Source: Mesotaenium endlicherianum (Eukaryota). From it: a stretch of 48,306 nucleotides of DNA. The stretch lies in contig WELA01002297.1 of the NCBI GenBank assembly GCA_009602735.1, forward strand, positions 842,773 through 891,078, in the 5' to 3' direction. Positions 1 to 34,657 of this stretch are shown here, piece after piece (the first letter of the stretch is position 1; each line of letters begins with the position of its first letter). The position numbers and the translations under genes are program-made. The notes under the pieces are model-generated. The model worked only from the letters and a program-made list of their open reading frames with translations, was not told the origin of the DNA and ran no database searches.

Positions 1-237
1 TCCTTTTGTGTGGTGGGAGCCATACTGAACATGTAACCAGGGCACAAGTTAGTAGGATATCGACCTTTGTCCTAGAAGTTGCAGGAAGGGAGTAAGTTCG
101 TATTAGTATGGTGTATTCGTTCCTGTTTACCTTACAGGGTGATTGCCAGGAGTTGACGTAGTTGCGGTGCGCTAGACATATACGTATGAATGTGTTTTCA
201 GGTGTGTTAAGTGATGTATGGCTGTGCGAGGGCCTTT
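1..237 (-). mobile_element. Fragment D: pol-to-accessory-ORF spacer and first codons (MAPTTQK) of the accessory ORF of the chromovirus family; continues off the left edge
   Basis: Reverse complement aligns with 12,657-12,896 of copy C (cacatcactt..., caccctgtaaggtaaaca, tactaacttgtgccctg, atggctcccacca). ATG is at 23-21. Confidence 0.85.
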
Positions 238-697
238 TGAAATGAATCGACTTACCAAATAGGCGATTAACAATTAATAAAGATCTTCATATCAGCAAGT
301 AATCTTTATGATATTTCCGTTAACTGTTTTAACGGCAAAGGACAATACACTAGCAGTGAATAATACTCGTCAGTCAAATGAGAGTAAACTAGCATCAATA
401 ATGCAAATCAGTAAACTCATACATAAGCAAGGTTAGAAGACAGTTGGTATCAATGGCTTCTTGCCTTGGATTCAGATCTCTCTCAGCAAGCTGTCCAAGA
501 GAGTTGGCCTCATTTCCAAATCCGAACTCGAGAGCAATGTCTAGCGTATGTACATGGAATGAGTTTACTGTTCAACGGTCAGTGCGATGGCACCGCCTAC
601 CCGGGAGTTAACCACGTTGGTAGGACCTCGGTTAACCAAATCCACCGCCATCTCCCATCATCCCGAATCGCCATCCATCATAGGGATGTCATCTGGC
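238..697 (-). mobile_element. LTR E (partial, 3' half) of the A/B/C family inserted into fragment D
   Basis: Starts TGAAATGAATCGACTTACC, the reverse complement of the family LTR end ...GATTCATTTCA. No PBS is adjacent. Truncated by the N gap. Confidence 0.9.
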
Positions 698-807
698 NNN
701 NNNNNNNNNNNNNNNNNNNNNNNNNNNNNNNNNNNNNNNNNNNNNNNNNNNNNNNNNNNNNNNNNNNNNNNNNNNNNNNNNNNNNNNNNNNNNNNNNNNN
801 NNNNNNN

Positions 808-1008
808 TTCTAACCTTGCTTATGTATGAGTTTACTGATTTGCATCATTGATGCTAGTTTACTCGCATTTGACTTACGAGTATTATTCCCTGCTAGTGTA
901 TTGTCCTTTGCCGTTAAAACAGTTAACGGAAATATCATAAAGATTACTTGCTGATATAAAGATCTTTATTAATTGTTAATCGCCTATTTGGTAAGTCGAT
1001 TCATTTCA
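808..1008 (+). repeat. 5' LTR of copy A (3' end only)
   Basis: Matches 10,157-10,357 with about 9 differences in 201 nt, ends ...GATTCATTTCA and is followed by the PBS. Confidence 0.92.
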
Positions 1009-1009
1009 G

Positions 1010-1021
1010 TGGTATCGGAGC
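1010..1021 (+). promoter_or_regulatory. Primer binding site, tRNA-iMet type
   Basis: TGGTATCGGAGC 1 nt after the LTR. The canonical plant iMet PBS is TGGTATCAGAGC. Confidence 0.9.
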
Positions 1022-1042
1022 AGTTATCACAGTCTTCTTTGT

Positions 1043-2521
1043 ATGGTAAGGACAAGGTCTCAAACTAGCAACTCCCGAGACATGGAGAACCTGGATAACG
1101 AGAATGTCGAAAACCAGGCGGAAAGCCATGTAGCGGGAAACCGTACCTATTCGGAAGCAGTAGCAGATGTTGCAGCTAGGGAGGCTGCAGAGGAGGCAGC
1201 TGCTATTGCCGCAGTCGCAGCTCAGCAAGCTGAGGAGGAGAGAACCAGGCTAGAAGCTGAACAAGTAGCAAAGGCCGCTGAAGATACAGAAAGGAGGGAA
1301 AGACAGCCAGCTGACGAGCGCACTGTCGAGGAACTCATGGCATCAAGGGCCAATGTTCTGAACCCACCTCCTGCTGTACAACTCAATGTACCCCTAGGTC
1401 AAATACGTGACCGGCTGAATGCGGCAGGAATTGCTGCTGCAGGAGCGAGAGGGATTGTTGAGGACACTACTCAGCGAGTAGATGCCAATGCTGCTGCTGC
1501 ATTTGCTAATCTACCACCCCAAAGTGTAGACTTGGGAGCATTGTTCGTTCAGATGCAGTCGCAAATGGCGACCATGTATCAGTCCCAGCAGGAGGACAAA
1601 AGAATCATAATGTCCCTACTGCGGGACAGAGACCAACTGGGGTCTCACACCACTAGTGGTGGTGGCCGAGGGCCTAGTAAGCCCAAGCCGAAACCTCCCC
1701 AGGACTATGATCCTGAGGGAAACAGAAAATATTACCTGATCAAGTTTCTCGCGGATGTTGAGCAGTGGCTGGAGAACTACCCAGAACTGCAAGATTACGA
1801 GAAGGTCAGGCACACCGGTGCGCTACTGAAAGGCAGTGCCGCAGACTGGTGGCTTTACTGGAAGGAAGAGCGTAAGGCTCGGCAACTCGGTGACCCTACG
1901 TGGGTAGAGTTTGTCGAGAAGTTGCATGAGAAGTTTGATGTCATCAACCAGCAGGAGAAAGCTATCTATGCGATGATCTCCCTGACACTGAAGCAGACCA
2001 CTTCAGTTGCTGAGTTTGCTCAAAAGTTCCAAGAGAACATGATGAAGCAGCCAGATTTGCCAGAACGGTATAGGATAGCATACTTCAGGTATGGCTTGAA
2101 ATCCGAGGTCTCTGGTCATTTTGCTGAGAAAAAGTATGAGAAACTGGCTGACTTGATCCAGGATGCTGACGCCTGGGATCAGCAGCAGTTCAATCACAAG
2201 CGCCAGAGTAACGCTTTGGTGTCTAAGATTGTCAAAAAGCCCCACGGTTCCTACAATGCAGTTGAAGGAGACCAGGCTGAGGATAATCAGGGTGATGAAT
2301 ATGAGTATGAGTACAATGCTATTCAGTCTAGAGGTAGAGGTGGTCCCTCTCGAGGTGGCTATGGAAGGGGTGGTGGTAGGACTAAGCCGAGACCAGCCTC
2401 AGCAAAATCCACTTGCTACCATTGTCAGCAGAAAGGCCACTACAGAGAACAGTGTCCGGTCAAGCACCTTCCGAAAGTTCAGAGAAATGACCAGCCTTTA
2501 AAAGACAGCAACAGTCAGTAA
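1043..2521 (+). CDS. gag: Gag polyprotein of copy A (492 aa)
   Basis: Retrotransposon gag core (LKGSAADWW...TWVEFVEKL...[10 protein letters not shown]), RGG tract and CCHC zinc knuckle [14 protein letters not shown]. Confidence 0.93.
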
Positions 2522-2535
2522 TTCAGTCTGACTGT
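2497..2535 (+). promoter_or_regulatory. Predicted -1 ribosomal frameshift signal (gag-pol) of copy A
   Basis: Slippery T_TTA_AAA (2497-2503) in the gag frame, 7-nt spacer, perfect 8-bp stem ACAGTCAG/CTGACTGT (2511-2535). The pol frame is -1 and opens only after the TGA at 2488. Confidence 0.8.
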
Positions 2536-4350
2536 GAGGATGCTATAGATAGTGAGTCGTCACTAGCTGCCCTCGTAGCAGGTATTATGGGTCCTGCTGA
2601 ACTGGATTCACTATGCATGCCTGACAACCAGATAAAGGAGACCATCAGCAATATGGACGTCCAGAGAGTGCACACTCTGGATGCTCTTGTTCCACCTGAT
2701 GTCCAACATTTCTTTGCTACGTCAGGAGAACAATGCGAAAGTCAGGAAAAGACAGTCCCCCCTATCCTACTGCATTGCATGATTGCAGGTAGGAAGGTGA
2801 GGGCATTTGTTGACGGAGGGGCGTCACATACTTTTATCCACAAGGACTTAGTTAAGCGGCTAAGGCTGCCTACTGTCACCCAAGGGAATAGAAAAATATT
2901 CCTTGGAGATGCCTCAAGTATCCCGGGAGGAGTTATAACCAAGCCTATTGAGGTCCAGTTAGGTTCTGGCATTGCAGTTCTAACTGAAACGCTTACATTT
3001 GAGGTACTCAACACTGGCTTTTATGATCTCGTGCTAGGCAGGTCCTGGCTTAATAGACATCAAGCTGAAGTGTGTTGGAGCAGAGGTACAGTTAAAGTGA
3101 GAGGAGCCAGTGATGGGCAGACTGACTTGGCACCCACCAGTGCTCTTCCTCTTGTCCTGTGTGGATGGCAAATGAAGGAAAAGAAGAGGCTTCCAGAAGG
3201 ATGCAAGTTGCTGAATGCAATGGAGTTCGTCAAAAGCTGGAACCAGAAGGAGGACAGAATGTTCTGTCTGCTGCTAAGAGAGGTACCTCTTCAACCTGAA
3301 GAAGTGGTTGAGAAAAAGGTAAGCCCTCCGAAGCACCCTACTGCTGCAAAACTTGTTGCTCAGTACACTGATATATTTAATATGCCTCCAAGACTACTCC
3401 CTAAGAGGGAAGTAGATCATAGGACTGATTTATTACCTGGGAGTCAACCACCTTGGCAACGCACTTATGGCTTGTCTTATGTGGAGAGCGAGGAGTTGAA
3501 AACACAGATTGCAGAGCTTGAGGAAAATGGTTATATTTCTCCCAGTAAATCACCTTACGGCGCACCCATCCTATTTGTTAAGAAAAAGGATGGCAGTATG
3601 CGGATGTGTGTGGATTACAGAGCCCTGAACAGAATTACAGTAAAGAACAAGTATGCTTTACCCAGGATCAAAGACTTGCTTGATACCCTGTCTGGTGCTA
3701 AGGTGTTCAGTAAGATAGATCTCAAGAGTGGTTATCATCAAATCAGAATTGCTGAGGGGGATGAACACAAGACTGCATTCCGTACACGTTATGGACACTA
3801 TGAGTTCAACGTGAAACCATTTGGACTGACTAATGCTCCTGCGACCTTCATGGGTGCTATGAATGACATTTCCAGACCTTATTTGTATAAGTTTGTGCAG
3901 GTTTTCCTGGATGATATTTTAATTTTCTCTAAAGATGAAGCTCAGCACGCTGAACACTTAAAGACAGTCCTGGACACTCTAAGAACGAATCACTTATATG
4001 CTAAAATGAGCAAGTGTGATTTCTTTAAGGAAAGTATTGAATTCTTAGGCCACGTTGTCAGTAAAGAGGGCATCAGTGTGGATCCTAAGAAAGTCCAGAC
4101 CATAAGGGACTGGCCAGTACCACAGTCTGTCTCTGAAGTTAGATCCTTCCTCGGGTTGGCTAACTACTATAGGAGATTTATTGAGAATTATTCCACAAAG
4201 GCCAGTAAACTGACTGACCTTACTAAGAAAGACATCGGGTGTGTGTGGGGGGAAGAGCAGCAGGCTGCCTTCCAGACCCTTAAGGATGCCCTTTGTTCTG
4301 CCCCAGTGCTAGCCGTGTATGACCCCAGCAAACCGGTGCAGGTGGTTACT

Positions 4351-5610
4351 TGAAATGAATCTTGCTTAATCAATATTAATATATTTCATTTAAATATAAA
4401 AGATCAGAGATAGGTGGAAGCGTGTGAAATCAGGGAGCGATCTTTGCCCTTATAATGAATTCCGTTTACTCATCTATAGTCCTTGACTCACTTATCGTAG
4501 TGTGCCATAGTTGCACACGAATACAAGGCACAAGAAAGAGGCGAGCTTGAGGACTAGAGCTTCTCCTTTAGAAAAACCTGACCTCTTGCCTACCAGGCAT
4601 ACAAGCATGTGTAAGCACATACACAACATCAGGGACTGAATAGCAAAGGCGCTCTCATTCAGATGACCATAAAGTAGCTAAAACACATCCCACTGACTTA
4701 GGTGCAAAAACCATGGAATCTGTCTGCTGTGTGACCCCGAAATGTCAGAGGGCATAACTCTGTCAATACTACTCCAAATTGAGCAAACTCAACGGCAACG
4801 GATGCATCTTGACGAGACCTTTCTGAAATGTTCTAGTTTCCTCCAAATGAAGCGCAAACGAAGCAGCCATGGCAATTTCCGTGAAGGCTGGTCATTAGAA
4901 CAAACCCAAAAAGTGCACACATCACTTGCAAGTAGAAATCCGACTGTAAAGCCTACTGTCCAGAATGAGGGACCACGAGATCCCAGCCTGCTATGAACCT
5001 AGTGACCACCTGGTTGACCACGGCGCAAGGTGCGCCGTTTCGTGGGAAACACGTTAAGTTGGGACCCACGGATCTAGGTCTAACGACCATATTAATTGGT
5101 CGGTTGACTGAAGTCCTAATAGTTCAGTTGACTAACGACGGCTCCGCCTACCCAGGAGTTAACCATACTGGTAGGACATCGGTTTACCGAATCTCAGTCG
5201 ACCTTCCGACTTCCAGTATTCTGCGGTCACATGTGCCAATCTATAATAATAATCTAATTGAACGTATCTATCCTCAGCGTACTGAAGCTAAGTATACTGA
5301 CTAATATCAAGCGAGCTTACTATATGTCAACCTACTGATATTACATCCTATATATAACTGATATATGAATCTCAGCAAACTATACTATGATACAAAAGTC
5401 ATCCTGTTGACCTTCTCAACAAAGTCAGCAAACTACACTGTGATACACAAGTCATCCTGCTGACCTTTTTGACAAAGTAAGTAAACTCGCATTACATTGA
5501 CATACATTCATTTAGATGAACTCGCACATGTGAGCATATTGACATAATACTTATTTAAAATTATATATATGTATGCAATTAATTAAATAATGATGAACTG
5601 ACTCATTACA
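4351..5610 (-). mobile_element. Solo LTR (1260 bp) of a related family, inserted in the RNase H of copy A
   Basis: TG...CA ends (TGAAATGAAT...ACTCATTACA) match the A-family termini in reverse. 5-bp TSD TTACT at 4346-4350 and 5611-5615. Confidence 0.92.
5373..5478. repeat. Two ~53-bp tandem repeats inside the solo LTR
   Basis: cagcaaactaYactRtgatacaMaagtcatcctgYtgacctt...acaaagt occurs twice. Confidence 0.8.
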
Positions 5611-7618
5611 TTACTGATGCCTCTGACTTTGCCATGGGTGCTATTTTGTTGCAGCCTGCTGACAAAACCACGAAGGATGGTAAGGTACGGCAGGAGTGGC
5701 ATCCTGTGCTGTATGAGTCTATGAAATTTAATCCAGCGGAGATTAATTACTCAGTGCATGATAAAGAGCTGCTAGCTATCATTCATGTACTCAAACAGTG
5801 GAGAGCATACTTACATGGTAAAGCTTTTAAGGTGATTACAGATCATCTAGCTCTGACTCACTTTCAGAAGAAGTCCAAGCTGTCGAGGAGGGAGAACCGC
5901 TGGAGCCAGATGCTGGAGCAGTTCCAAGTCCAGATCGACTACAAACCAGGGAAGTTGAACCCTGCTGATGCACTCTCTAGAAGACCTGACTTGCAAGAAA
6001 GGAACTTTAGTCAGCATACTGTAGATAAAGTCCTGTGTGCACTCACTTCACTAAAGGTGAAAAAGTCCTTCCTTGAACAACTTAGGAAAGCCTACCTTTC
6101 TGACCCAACATTTGAGCCCAGCCCCACTACTGGTATGTGTCGTGCTACCGCACTCGGGTATAAGCTCAAGGGAGGGGTCTGGGTGACTGAAACCACTTCA
6201 GGCAGGCTGAAGCTGGTCATTCCTAATAATTTGGAAATAAGGTCTCTCTTACTGAGTCAAGCTCATGACAGTCTCCTGGGTGGACATTTGGGGCAGGCCA
6301 AAACTGTTGGCAAACTGGCAAAACATTATCATTGGGAGGGGTTACCCCGGGAGGTCTTGAAATATGTCAAGTCCTGTGACCAGTGTCAGAGAAATAAGTC
6401 TCGGCACACACCACCCGGAGGTCTCTTGCAACCGCTACCCATCCCAGCGGGACGCTGGGAAACTATATCCATGGACTGGGTGGTCTCACTACCAAGAACT
6501 GCCAACGGGCATGATTCAATACTGGTAGTCGTGGATAAACTGACAAAAATGGTCATTTTTATCCCCACAACTGTCAAAGTGACTGCACTCGAAACAGCGA
6601 GACAGTTTTACAACCATGTAGTATGCCAACATGGGCTCCCTTCTAATATCATCTCAGACAGAGACTCAAAATTCACCTCTAAGTTCTGGAGAGCTTTAAT
6701 GGGGTTAATGGGAGTCAAACAGCTGCTCAGCACAGCAAACCACCCTCAGACTGATGGGCAGACTGAAAGAACTAACCGAGTTCTGCAGGAGGTGCTGAGA
6801 GCATATATTAACCAAAAACAAGATAATTGGGATGACCTGTTGCCTCAAATTCAGTTTGCGGTCAACAGTGCGGTGCACGCGTCAACGGGCAAAACTCCTT
6901 TTGAACTCAGCCTGGGTAGAGTCCCTAAGTCTCCTCTAGATGTGCTAGGGGAATCTTTAACTCACCCTGAAGGGATTGACAACCCGGTCTCCCTCCAGTT
7001 AACTCAGGAGTTTGCTGACACCCTGTCAGAAGTCCAACGAAACTTGCACACGGCCCAAGAAAACCAACAAAAATACGCTAATCAACACCGTCGGGAACTG
7101 ACATTTTCCAAGGGGGATTTAGTCAAACTGCATTCTCAGCACCTGTACCTCCCTGGTGTGGCCAAGAAAAAGCTTGGCCCTGTCTGGGTCGGTCCATATT
7201 CGGTGGTCCGACGTGTCGGTCAGAATGCTTACAAACTGAATATGTCCGCTGACTACAAGGGTCACCCGGTCTTTAATGTCTCCTTCCTGGAACCATACAT
7301 CAAAGGTGATACACTGTTCACAGGTCGGTTACCGGTCCAACCGGGACCGGTCCCCGCTGTCCGGGACGACGACACTAAGGAATATGAGGTCGATGAGATT
7401 TTAGACGCTCGCTCGGTCCGTCGATCGTCTAAATATGTCATGAAGTACCTCATCCGATGGAAGGGTTACGATGCCTCTGGGGACACTTGGGAATTTAAAG
7501 ATCAGCTGACCCATGCCAAAGGGGCGTTGAAACGGTTCCACCTTCGGGCGGCTGGGGCACCTCCCTAACAGTCATTTCAGTTGACACGGGAAGGTGACAG
7601 GAGGTCCTGTCTCCATAT

Positions 7619-7690
7619 AAGTTGGAGGGAGATGTGACAGTTAGTGACAGTAGTGACAAGCAGCCCACCTTTAAATTTAAGTTGGAGGGA
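7619..7690 (+). other. Two internal PPT-like copies just downstream of the pol stop
   Basis: AAGTTGGAGGGA at 7619-7630 (followed by GA-TGT) and at 7679-7690, identical to the true PPT at 9594. Confidence 0.75.
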
Positions 7691-7892
7691 GTGGTAGTCT
7701 CTGATCACCATATTACCCACTCAACCTGCGCTCACACTCAATTGCTCTCCAACTCAAATTTTCCTTATATTCGCTCACACCAGGTATTCCACTCTAGGAA
7801 CTCTCCCGATCGCGTCCCTCTTCATCAAGGGCACTCAGTAGCGGCAAAATAGCATGACTTCACTAGCTGCATAGTGTTTTTGATTGAGCAGG

Positions 7893-9490
7893 ATGACTCA
7901 AAAGTCGGAACTCAAGAGGAAGCGAAGGGCGGAAGAGGCACATGCAGAATACTTGCAGTTCCGTGGAGACATCGAATCATCTTCCATCTCCGCTCGGGAA
8001 TCACAACGACTCCAACAACAGCGGGAGGCACAGAAGAAGAAGGAGGAGGAGGAACAGGCCAGACTGAGGCAGGAAGAACTGGACAGAAAAGCTGCAGAGG
8101 AGGCTAAGAAAGCAGAGGAGGAGAGGCAAGCTGAGGAGAAGCGGAAGCAGCAGGCTGAAGAAGAAGAACAGAGGAGAATCAGCAGCTACCGCTACACGGT
8201 GCTGGGCAAGGGCTTTGATCTAATGGAGGAGGCCTTCAAGTATGCTCAGAGAAGTCGCAGTGAGTCGCAGAAGAAAATCCTCCAGTAAGAAGGGGAGACA
8301 TCCGAAAACTTCGACAAGTATATAGAGGTCGGCACAGGGCTCCTCCTCTACCACGATTACGCCAGGATGGTAGGATATACCATCGGAGAGGCCAAGGCAA
8401 TGGCCCAGGTGAACGAAGCAGGAGCTGTCTCGATTCCTGGTATCTGGGGGGCAGATAGGGTCATCAGGATGATCCCCATGGACGCGGACAGCTTCAAGGA
8501 CTCAACACCCCACAACAGGTTCAAGGCCATGTACAATGAGGTGGAGAGGAGGAGCTGGGAATTCTTGGCCAGAGAAACCAGTCAGCTGGACTTTGCAGGG
8601 CACTGGTACCCTTGTACTCTCAGAAAGACAGACGCTGCCTTCTTCCAAAAGCCCACTGATTGGCGGTGGATGACCATCAACATGAGGGACCAGCAGAATG
8701 ACAGGGCGACGGATGAGGATTTCCTGACAGACCTAAACGGGAACATAGTATTGCCCCCTCACATTGCGGCTTGGGATCCAAGATTGGATGGAGTCAGAGA
8801 CTGCATGAGCCAAGAGATGCAGGGGGACAGAAGCAGGGCCCGAGAGTCATTCTCCAAAGGGAAGCACGCTTATGCCAAATGGGCAAGTAAGCAGGGGGAA
8901 AAGGACCTCTATGCGGTCCGGACTCAGCAGCCCCCACCAGCACCCAAAAGGGGAAGGTCAGTAGGATATTCTTTTTCTCGGGAGGAGCTGGAGCAGCGGA
9001 CAGAGGAGACCCCAGAAGTCTCAGAGGAACCCGGGGACGGCGAGGAGGCGGAGTCGGAGGAAGACGAGGAGGAAGGCGAGGAGGAGGACACTAGCCCCGC
9101 CGTGATCCTGACACCTGCCACATCCCCTGTAAGGGAGAAGACGGGGTGGGCCCCGCCGCAACTCGCTCAAGAGGAGGATATCACTTGGCTGGGGACTGCC
9201 AGCGGACAGAGCCCATCTCCAGGCAAGGAGACCCAGTCGGACAGGGCAGACAGGAGGGCTGCTCGGGAGATAGCCAGAGGTCTGCCAGCATCTCCCTCGC
9301 AGAGAGGGCATGTACCCTTGGCTCATGTCATGCAACATCCTTCCGCGAGAAGGCTGCCTCCCTTCAGTTTCAGACTGTGCAGGAGGAAACAGCCCAGTTA
9401 CTGCGTTCTCCGCCGGGTCCTTACACGGAACCCCCTTCTCTAACAGGCTTCAAAAGACACCAAGACAGGAGGAGGTCTGGCTCCCCCTGA
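7893..9490 (+). pseudogene. Accessory third ORF of copy A (unknown nuclear-type protein, ~530 aa; one in-frame stop at 8286 and a frameshift near 9350)
   Basis: ORFs 7884-8288 and 8367-9443 share one frame (ILQ*EG vs LLQKEG in C). Colinear protein homology with the ORF of copy C. Confidence 0.8.
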
Positions 9491-9593
9491 GCATAGGGCC
9501 TCAGGGACATCTCCCTCCTAAGGGCAGCAGGCTGGGGATAAGAGGGACAGCACGCTGTTATTAGTAAGAGTGTTGTTGAGACGACAACATGAT

Positions 9594-9606
9594 AAGTTGG
9601 AGGGAT
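9594..9606 (+). other. Polypurine tract of copy A
   Basis: AAGTTGGAGGGAT immediately precedes the TGTAATGAATC LTR start. Confidence 0.88.
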
Positions 9607-10357
9607 TGTAATGAATCAGTATACTGGTCGATATAATATTCATTTAAATAATATAGTTAAATAAGTTCAGCCTGCTGAACTCTAGTTAACAATCAGTCTG
9701 CTGGACTTTATACTTAACATCAGTTTAATGACTTGGCCGGAAGTAGCAGGCTGAGGTCACCTTAAGTCAGCTTGCTGACACATTCTTTGACAGCCAGCTG
9801 ACTTCCGTACTCGGTAGCAGCGAACTGCCTCGATATGCATCTAAGTGTGGTATGCTAGATGAATGGCCAGATGACATCCCTATGATGGATGGCGATTCGG
9901 GATGATGGGAGATGGCGGTGGATTTGGTTAACCGAGGTCCTACCAACGTGGTTAACTCCCGGGTAGGCGGTGCCATCGCACTGACCGTTGAACAGTAAAC
10001 TCATTCCATGTACATATGCTAGGCATTGCTCTCGAGTTCGGCATTCGNCGCTAGACATTGCTCTCGAGTTCGGATTCGGAAATGAGGCCAACTCTCTTGG
10101 ACAGCTTGCTGAGAGAGATCTGAATCCAAGGCAAGAAGCCATTGATACGCACTGTCTTCTAACCTTGCTTATGTATGAGTTTACTGATTTGCATTATTGA
10201 TGCTAGCTTACTCTCATTTGACTGACGAGTATTATTCACTGCTAGTGTATTGTCCTTTGCCGTTAAAACAGTTAACGAAAATATCATAAAGATTACTTGC
10301 TGATTTGAAGATCTTTATTAATTGTTAATCGCCTATTTGGTAAGTCGATTCATATCA
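9607..10357 (+). repeat. 3' LTR of copy A (possibly a chimeric join at n10,048)
   Basis: TGTAATGAATC...GATTCATATCA with terminal inverted repeats; matches the other family LTRs. Confidence 0.88.
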
Positions 10358-11622
10358 CATACTCACATCCATCACCCTGATCATCCTCAGCCTGGTCTCC
10401 TTCAATAGCATTGTAGGAAGCGTGGGGCTTTTTGACAATCTTAGACAACAAAGCATTACTTTGGCGCTTGTGATTGAACTGCTGCTGATCCCAGGCATCA
10501 GCATACTGGATCAAGTCAGCCAGTTTCTCATACTTCTTTTCAGCAAAATGACCAGACTTCGGATTTCAAGCCATACCTGAAGTATGCTATCCTATACCTT
10601 TCTGGCAAGTCTAGCTGTTTCATCATATTCTCCTGGAACTTTTGAGCAAACTCAGCAACTGAAGTGGTCTACTACAGTGTCAACGAGATCATTGCATAGA
10701 TAGTTTTCTCCTGCTGGTTGATGACATCAAACTTCTCATGCAACTTCTCGACAAACTCTACCCACGTAGGGTCACCGAGTTGCTGAGCCTTACGCTCTCC
10801 TTTCCAGTAAAGCCACCAGTCTGCGGCAATGCCTTTCAGTAGCGCACGGGTGTGCCTGACCTTCTCGTAATCTTGCAGTTCTGGATAGTTCTCCAGCCAC
10901 TGCTCAACATCCGCAAGAAACTTGATCAGGTAATATTTTCAGTTTCCCTCAGGATCATAATCCTGGGGAGGTTTCGGCTTGGGCTTACTAGGCCCTCAAC
11001 CACCACCACTAGTGGTTTGAGACCCCAGTTGGTCTCTGTCCCGCAGTAGAGACATTATGATTCTTTTGTCCTCCTGTTGGGACTGATACATGGTCGCCAT
11101 TTGCGACTGCATTTGAACGAACAATGCTCCCAAGTCTACACTCTGGGGTGGTAGTCTAGCAAATGCAGCAGCAGCATTGGCATCTACTCGCTGAGTAGTG
11201 TCCTCAACAGTCCCTCTCGCTCCTGCAGCAACAATTCCTGCCGCATTCAGCCGGTCACGTATTTGACCTAGGGGTACATTGAGTTGTACAGCAGGAGGTG
11301 GGTTCGGATAACTGGCCCTAGATGCCATAAATTCTTCAACCGTGCGCTCGTCAGCGGGCTGTCCTTCCCTCCTTTCTGTATCTTCAGCATCTTTTGCTAA
11401 TTGTTCAGCTTCTAATCTGGCTCTCTCCTCCTCAGCTTGCTGTGCTGCGACTGCGGCCATAGCAGCTTGTTCATCTGCAGCCTCTCTAGCTGCAGTATCT
11501 ACCACTGCTTCAGAATAGGTACGGGTTCCCGCTACATGGCTTTCCGCCTGGTTTTCGACGATCTCGTTATCCTGGTTCTCCATGTCTCGGGAGTTGCTAG
11601 TTTGAGACCTTGTGCTTACCAT
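10358..11622 (-). pseudogene. gag: Truncated gag of copy B
   Basis: [16 protein letters not shown]... matches A gag. It has a CGA>TGA stop at 10,996, small deletions, and ends at the LTR junction. Confidence 0.9.
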
Positions 11623-12376
11623 ACAAAGAAGACTGTGATAACAGCTCCGATACCACTGAAATGAATCAACTTACCAAATAGGCAATTACCAATTAATAAA
11701 GATCTTTATATCAGCAAGTAATCTTTATGGTATTTTTCGTCAACTGGTTAAGCGGCAAAGGACAACACACGAGCAGGGAACAATACTCGTAAGTCAAATG
11801 CGAGTAAACGAGCATCAATGATGCAATCAGTAAACTTATACATAAGCAAGGTTAGAAGACAGTGCGTATCAATGGCTTCTCGCCTTGGATTCAGATCTCT
11901 CTCAGTAAGTCGTACAAGAGAGTTGGCCTCGTTTCCGAATGCCGAACTCGAGAGCAATGCCTAGCATATGTACATGGAATGAGTTTACTGGTTAACGGTC
12001 AGTGCGATGGCATCGCCTACCCGGGAGTTAACCACGTTGGTAGGACCTCGGTTAACCAAATCCACCGCCATCTCCCATCATCCCGAATCGTCATCCATCA
12101 TAGGGATGTCATCTGGCCATTCATCTAGCATACCACACTTAGATGCATATCGAGGCAGTTCGCTGCTACCAAGTACGGAAGTCAGCTGGCTGTCAAAGAA
12201 TGTGTCAGCAAGCTGACTTAAGTGGACTTCAGCCTGCTGCTTCCTGCTGAGTCATTAAACTGATATTGAATGCAAAGTCCAGCAGATTGATTATCAACTA
12301 GAGTTTAGTAGGCTGAACTTAATTAACTATTATATTTAAATGAATATTATATCTACTAATATACTGATTCATCACA
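10358..12376 (-). mobile_element. Copy B: 5' LTR (11,657-12,376), PBS (11,644-11,655) and gag, cut by the copy A LTR
   Basis: Reverse-complement LTR TGTGATGAATC...TTCATTTCA, PBS TGGTATCGGAGC, and gag highly similar to that of A. Confidence 0.92.
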
Positions 12377-15300
12377 CGATGCCTCTGGGAACACTTGGGA
12401 ATTTAAAGACCAGCTGATCAATGCCAAAGGGGCGTTGAAACGATTCCACCTTCGGGCGGCTAGGGCACCTCCCTAACTGTCATTTCAGTTGACATGGAAA
12501 AGTGACAGAAGGTCCTGTCTCCATTTAAGTTGGAGGGGAAATGTGCCAGTGTATGGCAATTAGTTTGCGAGAATAGGACAGTTATTGACAGTAAAAGGTC
12601 AGTATAGAGACAAATATAACAACCAGACCCACATGAAGCAAAGATGGCGGAATGAAAAAGGGACTCGCACATCAACACATCACTTACCTCACCCTGCACA
12701 CACATTCATCCGTTTGGTTTTCAGCGCATTACAGCTCCGTTAACTCCTAGTAACCACCCTGTAAGGTAAACAAGAGCAAACCTACCATAATAATACAAGC
12801 TTAATTCTCTGTCTGCAACTCCTTTGATAAAGATCGAGATTTTACTAACTTGTGCCCTGCTTACATGTGCAAGATGGCTCCCACCATACAAAAGGAAGAC
12901 AGAAAGCGCAAGGCAAAAGAAGCCAGGAGGACAATGGAGCAATACCAGAAAGAGTTGGCGGCAACGTTCCTCACCAGGAGAGAACAAGAAAGGGTCCGCA
13001 GACAACAAGAGGCGGCGGAGGAAGCACAGAGGAAGAAGGAGCAGGAGGCGGAAAACCTCACGAAAGCGGAAGAGGAGAGATAGAAGAAATAACAAGAAGA
13101 AGAGGCGCCAGCAGAGGAGGAGAGAAGCAAGAAGGCTGAAGCTAAGAAGCAGAAGAGCTTGGCCACTTACAGATATACTGTGGTGGGTGGCCAAACCTTT
13201 GATAACCTGAAGGAAGCAGTACTGGCAGCCCAGGAGATCAACAAGTTGGAACAGACAACACTTCTACAGAAAGAAGGAGCTGAAGCACTGGATAGGTACA
13301 TCGAGACACACACTGGTGTGGTCCTCTGCGAAGGTTAAGCCAAGATGGTGAGCTATACAGCAGAGCAAGCTCGGTACCTTGCAGCTGATTCGGAGAACAA
13401 GCCAGTTCCAGTTTTTGGAATAGTGGGAGATTAAAGACTCATCAGAATGGTGAGCATGCAGCCCGATAGCTTTAAGAATACGCTATTTTACCTGACACTG
13501 CTGCCAGCTTACAATGAGGTTGGGCGAAGGAGTTGGGAGTACCTGGCTAGGGAAACAGGGCAACAGATGTTCTCTCCCCACTGGTTTCCTTATAAGCTGA
13601 AAAAGGCTAAGCATGGGCCACAGTACTACCAGCAGCCTACAGACGGGAGGTGGATGACCGTCACTAACAAGAAGCAGGAGTGTGACTGGGCCCAACCAAA
13701 TGACGTCCACTATGGGCTAAACGGCAACCTCATGCAACCACCTCACATTGCCCCTTGGGACCCCACACTGAATGGATGCTTGAGTAATATATATGTGGAG
13801 ACCAGAGAGCACAGGAGGAGGGGGAGAGACTATTTCTCTAAAGGGAAGCATGCCTTTGTCAAATGGGCGAAAAATGCAGGCCGGATAGATATCAGCAGGC
13901 TGAAGGCCAAGCAACCCCCAGCCCGTCTTAAGAAAGTGCGATCAGTAGATTTTTCCATGTCTACCAAGGAGCAGGATGACTTAGTGGACGAGACCCCAAC
14001 CCTCTCAAAGGAGGAAGATGAGGAGGATGAGAAAGAAGAAAAAGGCAGATGAGAAGCATCAGGAGTTGGTACTCAAGAGACCCAGGGGCAGGCAAAAGGA
14101 GGGACTCCAAGGGCGCAAAGATCACGTGTATGAAATGTGATCCCCGTCATGGAGGCAACATGGCCCCACACTCGTTCTCCCAGCCCACCTGCCCAAGCAG
14201 GGGACGAAGCTGATCTGACTGTTCTGGGCAGCAGAGAAAGGCAGAAATCCCCAGAGGACAGGGGTACCAAAAGAACAACACGCGGAGTAGCCAGTGGTAT
14301 GCTGGCCACCCCCTTCAATCAGGGACATGTGCCTCTTGCCAATGTATTTCAGCATCCTACCAAAATGCCTGTTCATGTGGGTATCAACATCCAGGTGGTT
14401 GAAGAGCAGGCTACAATCCTTCGTTCACCTCGGAGCTCAACTTTAGAGCAAACCGGGTTCTTTAGAAGGCCAGCTGACAGACCTAGAGGGCTGTCGAGAT
14501 CTAGGTCCAAATGTCAATTCCCTAATCCTGAAGCCCCAGGAACAACCCCTTAAACATCAAGACCATCCTCCAGTCAAGCCTTGCTGGAGGTCTCTCTGTT
14601 TGCATCCCACAACGGAAGTGGATTGAGGGTGGAGGTGATAGTTCACAGTCACGAGTGATCCCCACAGCTAGGCAACAGTGTTGAAGCAAAAGGCAGGCTT
14701 TGAAGGGGGTAATTTTATTAGTTCCCTGATTAAGTATTTCTATAGTTTAATTTTGTCGAAGCGACAACAATCTAAGTTGGAGGGATTGTAATGAATCGCT
14801 ATATTGGTAGATATAATATTTCAAATACAGTAGTGAATTAAGTTCAACCTGCTGAAATTTAGTCAACATTCAATCTGCTAGACTCTATATAATTATCAGT
14901 TTAATGACTCAGCCGAGAGCAGCAGATTACAGTTAACTTAAGTCAGCTTGCTGACACATTCTTTGACAGCCAGCTGACTTCCTTACTCAGTAGCAGCGAA
15001 CTGCCTAGACATGCATCTAAGTGTGATATGTTAGATGAATGGCCAGATGACATTCTTATGATGGATGACAATTCGGGATGATGGGAGATGGTGGTGGATT
15101 TGGTTAACCGTGGTCCTGCCAATTCCCGGGTAGGCGGTGCCATCGCACTTGCCATTGAACAGTAAACTCATTCCATGTACATATGCTAGGTATTGCTCTC
15201 AAGGTCGGCATTTGGAAACGAGGCCAACTCTTTTGTACAGCTTACTAAAAGACATCTGAATCCAAGGCGAGAAGCCATTGATATGCACTGTCTTCTAGCC

Positions 15301-15492
15301 TTGCTTATGTATGAGTTTACTGATTGCATTATTGATGCTAGTTTTTTTGCATTTGAGTTGCGAGTATTGTCCACTACTAGTCTATTGTCTTCTGCTGTTT
15401 AATCAATTAACAGAAAATACCAAGAAGATTACTGCTGATATGAAGATCTTCATTAATTGTTAATAGCCTATTTGGTAAGTCGATTCATTTCA
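12377..15492 (+). mobile_element. Copy C, 3' part: end of chromodomain, internal PPT, degenerate accessory ORF, PPT (14,774-14,786) and 3' LTR (14,787-15,492)
   Basis: 12,377-12,537 matches 7470-7630 of A. LTR TGTAATGAATC...GATTCATTTCA. Confidence 0.9.
12874..14553 (+). pseudogene. Accessory third ORF of copy C (several stops and frameshifts)
   Basis: MAPTIQKEDRKRKAK coiled-coil, then YRYTV, YNEVGRRSWEYLARET, PTDGRWMT, LNGN..PPHIAPWDP, FSKGKHA and GHVPLANVFQHP, all shared with A. Confidence 0.8.
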
Positions 15493-20816: not shown

Positions 20817-23800
20817 ATGGCCCCCATGAGATATGAACCCTCTCGCGGGGCAATAGTCTTCATGAATGCTGAGGGCACAGCATACCAGGGACATGATCAC
20901 AAGCATGGTCCTCTTGGCCTCCAGCTTGAACCGACTCCCTTAGTGTTGGAAAACTTCAAAGAGCTAGCTACATCTGGCCCGATCTGGGTAAGTGCTTCAA
21001 TAAGCTCTGATTTCCTTCTCCTTCTTCTTGTGCCAGCTGTGTAGTGATTTGAGTTATTATATATTAGTTCGCATATATTTTAATGTTTTCAAATATATTT
21101 GGAGTAGTATTGTGTGGAGTCAAGTGTGAATAGGTACTCTAGTAACTTGGTTCATGTCCTTTGAACCTTCCAAGGCATTTTCGAAGTTAGAGGAAAGACC
21201 TAGAAGAACTCCATGTGGCAAAAGTCAGATGTGCCATTTTTAGGTCAAAAGGACATGTGTACATTATTCTAGAAAGAGGTGGCAAGTTTTGGGATGTGTT
21301 GGGTGCCAACACATCAACATACACCTTCCTAGAAATTACTTATGTAGCAAGTATATAAACAAGAGCTAGAACATAGAAAGACATTCCAGAATCACTCTTG
21401 TACTTGCCAAAATCCAGAAATATATTAACTTTCAAGAAGCCATCTCTCTTTCAAGAAGCTACCACTTGTGTTCAAAGATCCTTGTCTTGAATAGATAAAG
21501 TATTCTGTTTTACTAAGTACTTTATCTATCTGTTTCACTACAGTGGTATCGGAGCTAGGCACTTTGGTAGCACAAGAAGATGGCCGATCCTCAAGACCAA
21601 CAGCAAGCTTTCGAAGGAAGCCCTTCCTCTCCAAGACACCCTCCTCCAGCGCCGATGGGAGAGCCCACTCAAGAAAATCTGCAACAACAAGAAGCACCAC
21701 AAGGAGGAGCACACCCTCCTCCAGCGTCGATGGGAGAGCCTACTCAAGGAAATCTGCAACAACAAGAAGCACCACAAGGAGGAGCACCGTCAAATCCCGT
21801 GGCAGCCGCTATAGCAAAGTTGACCCCACCACAAGGAGTTCCCGCAAATGAGTGGGCAGCCTTCCTAATGACCGTCCACAACCAAGTGGGCTTGGCCACC
21901 TATGAAGCAACCGTGCAAGCGTCAAGAGAAGCTATGGCTGCCATGGTTGCCCCTATTGCGAGCAATGCTCAAAATCCAGCCCCGGCTCAAGCGCCTCCAC
22001 AAGAGCCAACGAGAGCAAGGAAACTCATCAAGCCCGGCAAACCCGACACTTTCAACCCCGGGAAAGGTGCCAACCTGAATTTATGGCTCTACCAAGTGGA
22101 GACGTACCTCGCGTTCCTTGAAGTACCCGAGGAGGACTACGTTCCCTTTGCCGTTACCTTACTTAGAGGAGCAGCAACATCATGGTGGCGTAACTATCAA
22201 GCGGCTATATATCAAGCTATGGCGCACCCCATGCTCGGCCAAGAGCCCCCACCATCATATGCAAGATGGGCAGATTTTCGTGAGGCCCTCAAGAAGCAAT
22301 TCATGCCCATCAATGCGGAGAAGATTGCCCGAGGAAAGCTCCACCATCTCAAGCAAACGACGTCCGTTCAAGAGTATACATCCAGATTTCACGCCCTCAC
22401 TCTTGAGATCCCCAACATGTCTCTCGAGGAGAAGATTGACCGTTACATCTTTGGCCTCAAACCCAAGGTGGCAAAGGAAGTGGAGTTACGCGACTTGACG
22501 GACTTCTCAAAGATCATTGAAGTGGCCCAAAAGGTGGATACCTTGGATTTCAAGCACTCCGTGCCTTCATCTTCACGGGTACCGACGACGCGGGTGTACG
22601 CAGCCCCTTCCACATCCGAATCTGGACCCACACCCATGGAAATCGGAGTTATTAAAAGGGACCCCGCGGCTGCCCGGAAGAGTGGAAGACCCTCCAATGA
22701 CACTTATGATGCAAGAAACCAGCAAGGAGTGAAAGCAAGACTCTCCCCGGCTGAAAAAGAAGCTCTCATGACGGCTGGACTATGCTTCTATTGCAAGGAA
22801 AAGGGCCATCGTGCACTTTCATGCCCCAAAAAGTTGTCAAAAAACGGACAGCGCCGGTAGGCCAGGAGCCTACCACCCCAAGACCCACTTCACGAGAAGG
22901 CAACACGCCAAGTGAGGTGGAGACCCCCGTTGAAGACGACGTTCCAGCCCCAATGAGTTTGAGAGGTTACCTTGGAGGAGAGAAGGTCCACATCTTGGTG
23001 GATAGCGGAGCTCAAGGCAACTTCATTGCTGCAGATTTTGCCACCAAGCACGGTATTACTATGCGAACTCTTGACCACGACGAGGAGATTATGATGCCCG
23101 ATGGATTCTCCTATACTACCCCTTCCAAGAAGACGTACCCCTTGGCACTCTCTATCAAGTCCTTCAAGGATAGAGTAGTGTTCTCCCCCATGCAATTGGG
23201 CAAGTACGACGTCATCCTAGGGACGCCTTGGTTGACCAAGCACAACCCCCAAGTTGATTGGAGGACCGGTACTATCAAGATCAAGAATGACATCACTTCA
23301 AGAATCTGTATTTTGCGCGCAATCCAGAATATCCAGACCCAAGACATCCAGAAGCCGGCACACGAGATACTATTGTCCGCCCTCCAACTCAAGAGACTTG
23401 TGAGGAAGGGACACGAGCTTCTTTTGGCCTTGATCACGCCAAAAGACATCAAGAAAGACATCGAGAGTCAAGAAGGCAGCCCCGTTCCCAAGGAGATACA
23501 AGAAGTCTTTGAGGACTACAAAGAAGTGTTCTCCCCGGAATTGCCCAAGGGCCTACCCCCCAAAAGATTCGTAGACCACAAGATAGAGTTGGAGCCCGGA
23601 AGCAAGCCCATCTCTCGGCCTACGTTCAAAATGTCATACACGGAGCTAGACGAAGTCAAGAAGCAAATCAAGGAGCTACTGGAGCATGGCTTCATTCGAC
23701 CTAGCAAGTCGCCATTTGGAGCCCCGGTGCTATTTGTCAAGAAGAAAGATGGTACCTTGAGGATGTGTGTGGACTATCGCGCCCTCAACAAGATCACCAT

Positions 23801-26800
23801 CAAGAATCGATACCCGCTGCCGCGCATGGATGAGCTCATGGACCGGCTGGTTGGAGCCAAGTACTTCACGAAGATTGACTTACGGAGCGGCTACCACCAG
23901 ATTCGCATCGCAGAACCGGACATAGAGAAGACGGCATTCAGGACAAGATATGGACATTTTGAGTTCATGGTCCTGCCATTTGGACTCACCAACGCGCCAG
24001 CAACTTTCATGACTATGATGAACACCATATTTCAGCCCATGTTGGACAGATTTGTGGTGGTATTCATCGATGACATCCTTATCTACAGCAAGACCCTTGA
24101 AGAGCATGCGAGACACTTGAAAGAAGTCCTTGAAGTATTGAAGCAAAACAAGCTGTTTGCGAAGGAGTCAAAATGCGAGTTTGCCAAACAAGAAGTGGAG
24201 TTCCTAGGTCTCCACGTGACTGCTGATGGCATCAAGATAGACCCCAAGAAGACCACGGTGGTGGAGGAATGGCCAACCCCCACGACCAAGAAAGAACTCC
24301 AGTCATTCTTGGGATTTGCCAATTGGTACAGAAAATTCATCCAAGGCTTCTCGCACATAGCAGCCCCCCTGACAGATCTACTCAAGAAGGACAGGCTATA
24401 TACATGGACCGAGAAAGAGGAAGAGGCATTTCAAGAGTTAAAGCGAAGATTGACCACATCCCCGGTGCTCACACTCCCAAGTCCAAACCCAGATTGGCCC
24501 TTCCACGTCATCACCGATGCATCTTCCTATGCAATAGGAGCAATCCTGCTTCAAGACCAAGGCAAGGGACTGCAGCCCATCGCCTACGAGTCAAGGAAGC
24601 TAAATCCAGCCGAGCAAAATTATACAACCACGGAGCGAGAGGCATTGGCGATTGTACATGCCTTGAAGGTTTGGCGCTGCTACGTTGAAGGACGCAAAGT
24701 ACTGGTCACCACGGACCACGAGGCGTTAAAGCACCTCCAGACGCAGCCGTATCTCTCAAGGAGACAAGCAAGATGGAGCGGATACTTGCAACAATACAAC
24801 ATCACGATTCAGTACCAGCCCGGCAAGACAAACCCGGCTGACCCCCTCTCAAGACTGCAATTAAATGCAGTGATGGTATCCCTGAAGACAGATCTGGAAG
24901 CTCGATTTTCAGCCGCCTATGAAAGAGACCCTTACTACAAGAACGGAGAAGCAGCCTTGGACCCATGCAAGAAGCAAGAAGGCAATTATTGGGTGAGGCA
25001 AGATACGGGCCAGAGATGTGTTCCTAATGACTTAGACCTCCGGCTCTTGCTTCTACGAGAAGCACACGACAACCCTCTTGGAGGACACTTTGGAATCCTA
25101 AGGACCACGGGCGTTCTAGCTAGGACTTATTGTTGGCCAGGCATGTCTAAGCAAGTCAAGGAGTACTGCAGGAGCTGTGACACATGCCAAAGAATCAAGC
25201 CATCATCGCAAAAGGCGGGAGGACTCCTCCAACCACTACCAATCCCCGAAAGACAATGGACGGACATCTCAATGGACCTTATCGTGGACTTGCCCGTGAC
25301 ACCTCGAGGCCATAATGCAATACTCACGGTGGTGGACAGACTTACCAAGATGGCTCATTTTATTCCCACGACGACTAAGGCTACAGCACCACAACTTGCA
25401 AGACTCATCTTTGACAACATCTTCCGACTCCATGGACTACCATCAAGAATTGTGTCAGATAGAGATCCAAGATTCACAAGCCATTTCTGGAAAAATCTCT
25501 TCAAGAACTTGGGTACATCGCTGGATATGTCTACTGCCTACCACCCACAATCAGATGGGCAAACCGAGCGTATGAATCGTACCCTAAAGACCTCTCTAAA
25601 GGCCTACGTGTCTACCCTCGAGCAAGACTGGGACATGTACTTGACCCCCCTCGAGTTTGCCTACAACAACACTACGCAGGCCTCTACCCAAGAGTCCCCA
25701 TTCTTCCTCAACTATGGCTTCCATCCGACCACGCCACTGAGCTTCACGGCTGGCCATGATGAAGTACCTGCAGCCACAGATTTTATGGAGACATTAGAAG
25801 CAGCCCTTACAGCAGCGAAGAAAGCTCTACAACACGCGCAAGATGCTCAAGCAAGAGTGGCGAACAGATCCAGAAGAGAAATTACGTACAGAGTGGGTGA
25901 CAACGTGTTACTATCATCCAAGAACATTTCCCTGAACAACAGGCCTGCCGGCAGCAAGTTCTCTCCCAAGTATTTGGGACCCTTCAAGATTATCCAGCAA
26001 GTCAACCCCGTTGCTTTCAAGCTAGAACTTCCCCAGACTATGCACATCGACCCCGTATTCCACGCTTCCCTCTTCAAGCCATATGTGCAACCCGACAACA
26101 AGTTCCCAGGACGTGTGACAACCCCACCAGCCCCAACAATAGTGGATGATCATTTGGAGTACGAAGTGGAAGACATAGTGGCTATGAGAAATTTCAGGAG
26201 ACAGCAGCAATACTTGATCAAGTGGAAAGGATATCCAGATTCGGAGAATAGTTGGGTGGCGGCGCACTACCTTGACAAAGTTCAGAGAAAGTTGAAGCGC
26301 TTCCATGCCGCCAACCCCCATCTTGGACCAGCCCCAAGTCTCTCTACTAGAAGCCCGAAGACTTCAGGGAGGCAGCCTGCCACCATCAAGAAGCAGCAGA
26401 AGACCCCTTGGAGGCAGCCTGCAAGAACAAGAAAGAGGAAAAATTGACATTAGACACTCTTCTCTTCTCGCAGTTTCTGGACAGAAAACTAAAACTGCTA
26501 CTGGTAATAGGTCTCTGCATAATAAATTCTGAAAATTTACCTGGCTGTAGTCCATGAGTAGCCGGTCATTTAGAGTCCAAGTTTGCTCAATTTGGAGCAC
26601 TGGTGAGAGAGATATGATGCTCTAAGTAGAAGGGGGTCAGGCTGCTGGCATTGTTAGGACAGAATATGCCTTCTGACATTGTGCCTTCCCCTGAACTTGG
26701 AATGCTCTGAAACTCAAGACTCTGGTAGAACATCTTACAGCGCCCAGTTTGAGACTTAGTTTGCAGAATTTGGAGAAGTATAGAAGGACTTATGATTTTC

Positions 26801-31194: not shown

Positions 31195-31352
31195 CTGTGT
31201 GTGTGTATGTGCGCGTGCATGCGTGCATGTGTGTGTGTGCATCCTTGGTGCACGTGTGTGTGAGCGTGCCTGTGCGTGTGGGCGGGCGTGTGTGTGTGTG
31301 TGCGCGCGCGTGCGCGTGTGTGTGTCTCTACACGTGTGCGTGCGTGCGTGTC
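31195..31352. repeat. (GT/GC)n low-complexity microsatellite
   Basis: Alternating purine-pyrimidine tract. Confidence 0.8.
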
Positions 31353-34300: not shown

Positions 34301-34657
34301 AATAGGAAACGACTCACGATGAAGATAGCCAAGATACACAAATCATGGTCATTAACATGCTGGAAGACACTGCAGAAAGTTTACAAGATGCAAAAAATGA
34401 TGGTGTTTCTGCTGTATGTCATGGGGATCTTCCTCATCACACTTCCGCTTTGCAAAGCTGCTTACTGTTTTCTTTGCATGAAGTTGGCCAAACTCCTGGC
34501 GATCGTGAAGGCGCTGTCATCAGCAGCTCTGCTTGTCTAGTGTCAAGAACTTCAGCTGGCCTCTAGCCAGCAACTTGAGAATGGCTGCCTCTTTGAAACA
34601 ACATATTTATTGTTCTCATAGAGTGTGTGGCAGGGTCTTTGAAGCAGGCAGAGTTGG

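What the first reader, a model, noticed from the sequence alone, without database searches (positions are those of the whole stretch)
7893..14553. Chromovirus family carrying a conserved, non-env third ORF between pol and the 3' LTR
Seen: copies A (7893-9490) and C (12,874-14,553), plus the start of D, encode a sense-strand protein of ~530-560 aa after pol. It has an N-terminal basic NLS-like patch (LKRKRR / RKRKAK) and a charged coiled-coil. A ~250-aa globular core follows (YNEV.RRSWE.LARET, HW.P, PTD.RWMT, LNGN..PPHIA.WDP, FSKGKHA..KWA), then an acidic tract, an SP-rich tail and a conserved GHVPLA.V.QHP motif. I see no signal peptide or TM helix and recognise no known domain. Known: chromoviruses normally encode only gag-pol. 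Inference: an element-encoded accessory nuclear factor, for example anti-silencing (by analogy to VANC) or a targeting factor.
Basis: partly seen in the sequence, partly recalled or inferred. Interest (0 to 1): 0.88.

Follow-up and report, generated by a model that had tools for sequence, protein, structure and literature searches.

The report
Retrotransposon with swappable unknown third gene
A jumping gene, probably from a green alga or non-seed plant, carries after its usual genes a real third gene with no detected relatives, in two very different versions on nearly identical elements; it is likely a swappable helper gene whose protein is predicted to work in the nucleus, but its job is untested.

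Summary
The third ORF is real. A chromodomain Ty3/gypsy element carries a sense ORF of about 540-560 codons between pol and the 3' LTR. Copies A and C are 41% identical in protein with pN/pS 0.52 at saturated synonymous sites, and conservation among other copies is confined to ATG-stop. Both window copies are broken. No homologue or domain was found in any library searched; both AlphaFold models failed (pLDDT about 35). Two RNA runs gave too few reads to test this. The premise that chromoviruses encode only gag-pol is too strong: 18% of Tekay elements have a 3' sense extra ORF (REXdb). The scan has noted extra post-pol ORFs in other genomes, but not this protein. Anti-silencing remains an untested guess.

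The parts
808..1008 (+). 3' part of the 5' LTR of element A (the rest lies in an N gap); donor-like GTAAGT 11 nt before its end
1010..1021 (+). primer binding site (initiator tRNA-Met-like; label recalled)
1043..2521 (+). gag of A (Ty3_capsid, Retrotrans_gag, CCHC knuckle)
2491..7568 (+). pol of A (protease, RT, RNase H, integrase, chromodomain), overlapping gag in another frame; interrupted at 4351-5610
4351..5610 (-). insertion in pol with a 5-bp target duplication and LTR-like ends; absent from other copies
   Evidence: joint 4345-5611 in X1 and X5 contigs
7619..7629 (+). internal copy of the polypurine tract; left border of the ORF3 cassette (a second copy at 7679-7689 in A only)
   Evidence: A/C similarity ends here; X5 loose end at 7629
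7635..7652 (+). tandem TGACAG-type motif, the only A/C spacer match (16 of 17 nt); candidate promoter element
   Evidence: 2 of 500 shuffles score as well
7784..7891 (+). predicted 5'-UTR intron: donor-like AG|GTA at -109, branch-like ACTAGC at -32, CAG at -4 to -2
   Evidence: not shown by RNA
7893..9521 (+). ORF3 type A, broken (stop at 8286, frame shift near 9345)
9594..9606 (+). terminal polypurine tract of A; the cassette's right border lies about 20 nt upstream
   Evidence: X5 loose end at 9571
9607..10357 (+). 3' LTR of A
10358..12376 (-). element B: 5' LTR (11657-12376), PBS and truncated gag, inverted
12376..12537 (+). element C: end of the chromodomain, spacer and internal polypurine tract (12527-12537); 91-93% identical to A
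12766..12873 (+). predicted 5'-UTR intron of type C: donor-like at -108, TACTAAC at -31 (the acceptor position is a clean CAG in D, not in this copy)
12874..14553 (+). ORF3 type C, six internal stops
14774..15492 (+). terminal polypurine tract and 3' LTR (14787-15492) of C
1..237 (-). D: type-C spacer with the same donor, branch and acceptor-like motifs, and the first 7 codons of ORF3 (ATG at 23)
238..697 (-). family LTR abutting D's spacer directly, with no PBS

Best explanation
This is a chromodomain Ty3/gypsy retrotransposon family with a selected third gene in two deeply diverged versions, likely swapped as a cassette between lineages, likely read from its own spliced mRNA, and predicted to make a nuclear helper protein that most likely counters host silencing of the element. 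Shown: the ORF, its position, its coding-type conservation, the two types on near-identical backbones, and the cassette borders beside two copies of the polypurine tract. Inferred (about 0.85): exchange by template switching between co-packaged RNAs, using the shared pol end and the PPT-LTR as flanks. Inferred (about 0.6): a promoter in the spacer with a 5'-UTR intron of about 107 nt, or splicing from the donor-like site at the LTR end to the same acceptor. Guess (about 0.4): the basic N-terminal patch imports the protein, the charged helix acts as a spacer or dimer arm, and the W/H/Y-rich core of about 240 residues binds a host chromatin or RNA-silencing factor. A host-facing role is preferred because two proteins only 41% identical appear interchangeable on one backbone, so they need not be matched to the backbone's sequence.
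For: Selection: A vs C over 511 codons gives pN 0.38 and pS 0.73 (pN/pS 0.52, bootstrap 0.46-0.59; synonymous sites saturated, so this overstates dN/dS); codon-position identity in the core is 0.58/0.66/0.43. Contigs alike to C at 80% or more pile up only inside the ORF: X1 summed depth 1,000-13,500 upstream, 23,000-424,000 in the 23 bins inside, 16,000 falling to 250 downstream; an X5 contig departs exactly at the stop, 14553. At the two of C's six stops covered by the 40 rows shown (of 287), most contigs read another letter, so those breaks are not family-wide. Swap: backbone pS 0.14 (gag A/B, 208 codons) and 0.085 (chromodomain end A/C, 32 codons), LTRs 87-98% identical; X5 has single gag-pol pieces about 99% alike to A at depth 32-49, with type A at 9-17 and type C at about 29; loose ends at 7629 and 9571. 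Splice-like signals: donor at -109/-108/-107 and branch at -32/-31 in A/C/D; 1.2%, 0.4% and 5% of 20,000 shuffled A spacers place a donor, branch or YAG so. No membrane segment. Precedents: nuclear Grande GENE23 with its own promoter, spliced Athila ORF2 mRNA, NLS-bearing Tekay aORF.
Against: No direct evidence on function. No homologue, domain or usable fold. Both window copies are broken, and no uninterrupted copy was seen whole. Two polyA RNA runs (about 6% and 12% of each read) laid 1 read each on type C and gave mean depth 0-5 on type A; no RNA splice joint into ORF3 was among the 15 joints listed (of 372). The splice motifs were chosen after looking, so the shuffle figures overstate their strength; the CAG may be only start-codon context; copy C lacks a clean CAG. 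The direct A/C backbone comparison rests on 162 nt plus the LTR. Contig depth is not copy number, X1 may be the window's source, and in X1 the two types together reach only about 60% of pol depth. Among the 21 listed in-ORF differences between C and other copies, only 11 fall on third positions. The NLS is a pattern match only.
Confidence: 0.45

Rival explanations
1. ORF3 is a Rev/CERV-like regulator: made from a spliced mRNA, it helps export or package the element's unspliced genomic RNA.
For: A donor-like GTAAGT in all 5 LTR copies and acceptor-like signals before ORF3 would make the genomic RNA intron-containing; basic patches; CERV precedent (PMC10309623 abstract).
Against: No sequence link to CERV or Rev was tested or found; the core has only 2-3 Cys; splicing is not shown.
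Confidence: 0.2
2. ORF3 is an integration cofactor that aids nuclear import of the cDNA complex or steers insertion into heterochromatin or into its own family.
For: Four family pieces are nested within 15.5 kb; basic patches; an internal PPT, a feature linked to nuclear import in other elements (PMC7197481 passages).
Against: The integrase already has a chromodomain with its aromatic residues intact; a separate gene would need a route into the particle; nesting is common without extra genes.
Confidence: 0.15
3. ORF3 is a captured host gene or the remnant of another transposon, carried as a passenger.
For: The internal PPT sits where an ordinary chromovirus would start its 3' LTR, so the cassette was probably acquired there; both window copies are broken.
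Against: Saturated synonymous but constrained non-synonymous divergence; conservation limited to ATG-stop; both types are multi-copy in two organism labels; no host or transposase homologue.
Confidence: 0.08
4. ORF3 is an env-like or movement protein.
For: Same position and orientation as env, and env-like splice signals.
Against: No hydrophobic segment or signal-peptide-like start; no env or Athila ORF match.
Confidence: 0.04

Closest known systems
Sense additional ORFs between pol and the 3' LTR (aORF-3S / eORF-3'F): Tekay chromoviruses, Athila, SIRE (PMC7264820, parts 1-2 of 3 read; PMC6317226, passages and supplements 4 and 5 read)
   Same: Same position and orientation, family-wide, unknown function; 18% of 782 Tekay elements have one.
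   Different: None is listed for the Chlamyvir, Tcn1, Galadriel, Reina or CRM clades. No match here to the domains found in such ORFs (Athila ORF-1, PMD, Transposase_28 and others) and no transmembrane segment. Two interchangeable types with an internal PPT at the border were not described in what I read. REXdb's own eORF sequences (supplements 1 and 3) were too large to read, so no direct comparison was made.
Sunflower Tekay 5' aORF (PMC11728184, passages)
   Same: Chromovirus accessory ORF with predicted NLS, helices and disordered regions and no Pfam domain; the authors suggest a role in silencing.
   Different: Lies before gag and is highly conserved within its group; no sequence comparison was possible.
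Maize Grande gene23 (as reviewed in PMC7264820)
   Same: [quoted passage not shown]
   Different: Antisense, and in a non-chromovirus lineage.
CERV of C. elegans Cer1 (PMC10309623, abstract and one background section)
   Same: Nuclear accessory protein from a spliced retrotransposon mRNA.
   Different: Function shown there, not here; no known sequence relation.
VANC anti-silencing proteins (PMC13547354, passages)
   Different: Encoded by MuDR DNA transposons, dicot-specific and structurally related to MAIN; no such Pfam match here.

Membership tests
Chromovirus (Ty3/gypsy) | gag then PR-RT-RH-INT between LTRs, with PBS and PPT | tested here: met
Chromovirus (Ty3/gypsy) | chromodomain at the integrase C-terminus | tested here: met
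   PF00385 E 4.7e-09; Y-W-Y aromatic residues present (cage positions recalled)
Chromovirus clade (Chlamyvir, Tcn1, Galadriel, Tekay) | RT/INT phylogenetic placement with reference elements | not testable with these tools
   No reference set held; the closest proteins are only 35-43% identical and mostly unnamed
aORF-3S / eORF-3'F | sense ORF of 250 codons or more between pol and the 3' LTR, separate from the polyprotein | tested here: met
aORF-3S / eORF-3'F | present across the family's copies and conserved as coding | tested here: met
   (from contig depth and variants, not whole copies)
env-like aORF | transmembrane segment or signal peptide | tested here: not met
   hydropathy maximum 0.88-0.99; no dedicated predictor available
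env-like aORF | spliced subgenomic mRNA | tested here: inconclusive
   motifs present; RNA coverage too low
VANC / PMD / Transposase_28 accessory proteins | the family's Pfam domain | tested here: not met
   no such match at E up to 0.1 or up to 10
VANC / PMD / Transposase_28 accessory proteins | structural similarity to MAIN or PMD | tested here: inconclusive
   models unusable, pLDDT 33.7 and 34.8
VANC | sequence-specific demethylation of its own element | not testable with these tools
   needs experiment

The most novel reading that the evidence does not exclude
A retrotransposon keeps two ancient, interchangeable alleles of a new-fold nuclear antagonist of host silencing in a PPT-bounded cassette with its own spliced transcript, and swaps them onto one backbone the way retroviruses swap env, to stay ahead of host defence. 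It would be a retrotransposon-encoded anti-silencing protein under balancing selection.
Probability: 0.15. Interest if true: 0.8.

Novelty: new variant of a known kind. Interest (0 to 1): 0.45.

Why it matters
Extra ORFs of plant LTR retrotransposons are common and almost all lack a function. This one is a protein family absent from every library searched, and it comes as a natural experiment: two versions 41% identical on the same backbone. Comparing copy number, age, methylation and insertion sites of the two types in one genome can test what an accessory ORF does without any engineering. If the function stays unknown it is one more orphan accessory ORF.

Tried and rejected
No assembled genome was held, so copies could not be counted or compared whole. 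Homologue searches: the A core against 5.8 billion proteins, 0 of 424 candidates; the A+C alignment against longer proteins, 0 of 5842 (weak evidence by the tool's own note); an HMMER profile against 1.84 billion representatives gave 1 hit, P0001, a bacterial protein with seven near-identical repeats whose small scores add up, rejected as an artefact. Metagenome contigs, 0 of 148 and 0 of 586 pattern hits; viral contigs, 0 of 91. PDB sequences, 0; PHROGs, one hit at E 0.26; NCBIfam, 0. Pfam hits to the charged helix (CCSAP, zf-CCCH_Mcm10) and DUF6462 (E 0.04, 21 residues) are below cut-off and were rejected. Both AlphaFold jobs failed, so no fold search was run. The ESM Atlas gave no result. 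No RNA holder was listed for the ORF3 region. The idea that the cassette begins with a relic of the family's own LTR was not supported: no spacer-LTR similarity. No TATA-like box was found in the C spacer and no AATAAA near either ORF3. A recalled likeness of the YRYTV..G..F...EA stretch to endonuclease DNA-binding repeats had no Pfam support. Seven literature searches listed no description of this family; subscription journals are not covered, and Steinbauerova 2011 was not read.
Full report
Setting. The first 15.5 kb of the window hold four pieces of one LTR retrotransposon family. A is nearly complete: LTR part 808-1008, PBS at 1010, gag 1043-2521, pol 2491-7568 with protease, RT, RNase H, integrase and chromodomain, ORF3, PPT at 9594 and 3' LTR 9607-10357. 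Its pol is split by a 1.26-kb insertion that other copies lack. B is an inverted LTR with the start of gag. C runs from the end of the chromodomain through ORF3 to its LTR. D shows a spacer and 7 codons of ORF3 at the window's edge. The nearest pol relatives among 7994 scored candidates are only 35-43% identical; the best named one is from Closterium. A green-lineage, non-seed host is my inference from that hit, from the intact chromodomain aromatic residues, which REXdb reports as limited to non-seed plants, and from an ACT-domain-like exon near 47.7 kb (label recalled).

Observation. ORF3 starts 324 nt after the pol stop, at its own ATG, in the sense orientation. A carries a stop at 8286 and a frame shift near 9345: the shifted frame matches C's tail (7 of 2000 shuffles; a two-sequence BLASTP of the same short pieces missed it). 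C has six stops. The protein plan is a basic patch, a charged helix (63-70% E/K/R/Q), a core of about 240 residues with 30% hydrophobic residues and 6-7 tryptophans, an acidic tract and an S/P-rich tail, with no membrane segment.

It is a selected gene. A and C share 41% of 511 aligned codons' residues, with pN 0.38 and pS 0.73; the core gives pN/pS 0.48 (0.40-0.57). Contigs of run X1 that are 80% or more alike to C cover the ORF about tenfold more deeply than its flanks in most bins, though four inside bins dip to 23,000-40,000, and an X5 contig leaves the window's sequence exactly at the stop codon. Two of C's stops fall in the part of the table shown, and most contigs read otherwise there. 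Against: only 11 of the 21 listed in-ORF differences fall on third positions, and no whole uninterrupted copy was seen.

Two cassettes on one backbone. ORF3's synonymous sites are saturated, yet gag (A/B) has pS 0.14, the chromodomain end (A/C) 0.085, and the LTRs are 87-98% identical. Identity between A and C falls from about 0.9 to a gapped-alignment background of about 0.6 just after 7640 and recovers near 9570. In X5, a different organism label and study, gag-pol pieces are about 99% alike to A at depth 32-49, type A lies at 9-17 and type C at about 29, and loose ends fall at 7629 and 9571. Fast protein evolution cannot saturate synonymous sites locally, so the two cassettes are far older than the backbone they now share, and recombination is the simple reading. 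Depth is not copy number, X5's nature is a guess, and X1 may be the window's source.

Borders. The 11-nt PPT word occurs 5 times on the plus strand: before both 3' LTRs, after pol in both A (7619) and C (12527), and once more in A (7679). The cassette thus sits between an internal and a terminal PPT. The internal copy may mark where the ancestral LTR began, or may act as a second plus-strand primer like the central PPTs of EVADE and Ty1 (PMC7197481 passages). This was not tested. The spacer does not resemble the LTR.

Expression. The A and C spacers share only one 17-nt match, a tandem TGACAG-type motif. Yet each has a single AG|GT(A/G) site, 109, 108 and 107 nt before the ATG in A, C and D, a branch-like ACTA(A/G)C at -32 or -31, and CAG at -4 in A and D. 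Shuffled A spacers place these so in 1.2%, 0.4% and 5% of 20,000 trials; the motifs were chosen after inspection. All five LTR copies also end with a donor-like GTAAGT. Either an internal promoter with a 5'-UTR intron or env-like splicing from the LTR would explain how a gene this far downstream is translated. Two polyA runs could not test it: 351 and 455 reads over 9.2 kb of A, mean depth 0-5 on ORF3, 1 read each on type C, and no RNA joint into ORF3 among those listed. The family looks largely silent in those samples.

Function. Nothing matched: Pfam, 5.8 billion proteins, 1.84 billion representatives (the one hit is a repeat artefact), PDB sequences, PHROGs and NCBIfam, and contig collections. 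AlphaFold gave pLDDT 33.7 and 34.8. I commit to a nuclear, host-facing helper, most likely against silencing, at about 0.4, because two very different versions serve one backbone. A CERV-like RNA exporter and an integration cofactor remain open.

What is known. REXdb found 3372 Ty3/gypsy elements with extra ORFs, in 314 groups. 3' sense ORFs occur in 18% of Tekay elements but are not listed for its other chromovirus clades. Reviews and family studies describe nuclear, NLS-bearing or own-promoter accessory ORFs. Fungal Gypsy elements with an additional ORF are drawn in PMC2864245 (passages and section 5). PMC5890265 (passages) shows a Klebsormidium Gypsy element that carries a DNA methylase, a different kind of cargo. 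Unread REXdb supplements 1 and 3 hold the eORF sequences and could contain relatives. The scan's notes list several other post-pol ORFs in other genomes and none like this protein.

Verdict. A real accessory gene of a known kind, with a new protein family and an unusual two-type, PPT-bounded cassette; function untested. Interest 0.45.

Noticed in passing
window 4351-5610: A 1.26-kb insertion in pol with a 5-bp target duplication whose ends resemble this family's LTR ends in inverted orientation; probably a solo LTR of a related family.
   Followed up: partly
window 238-1008: Two LTR parts face each other across a 110-base N gap and together equal about one LTR length; either a real nested inversion or a scaffolding artefact.
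   Followed up: partly
window 1-12376: B (LTR plus gag) and D (spacer plus ORF3 start) lie on the same strand and may be one element whose middle was lost between later insertions; the family appears to insert into itself.
   Followed up: partly
window 6352-7891: Low-level RNA reads, probably antisense, cover the integrase end and the spacer and stop near the ORF3 start (mean depth up to 10 in X23).
   Followed up: no
window 808-1008: 39 and 63 RNA reads leave the LTR end into sequence unlike this element, suggesting an LTR copy inside a transcribed locus elsewhere.
   Followed up: no
window 21040-27719: A second, young chromovirus (LTRs 98.8% identical, gag and pol open) with about 770 nt between pol and the 3' LTR and no ORF3 homologue.
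   Followed up: partly
window 28317-29567 and 37140-38258: Two related open frames without Pfam match, sharing an alanine-rich stretch after a short conserved motif; probably host paralogues.
   Followed up: no
window 46970-47950, minus strand: GC-rich exons resembling an ACT-domain-repeat gene (label recalled).
   Followed up: no
window 9660-9805: Several CAGC/GCTGA-type repeats cluster in the first 200 nt of the LTR; possible factor-binding array.
   Followed up: no
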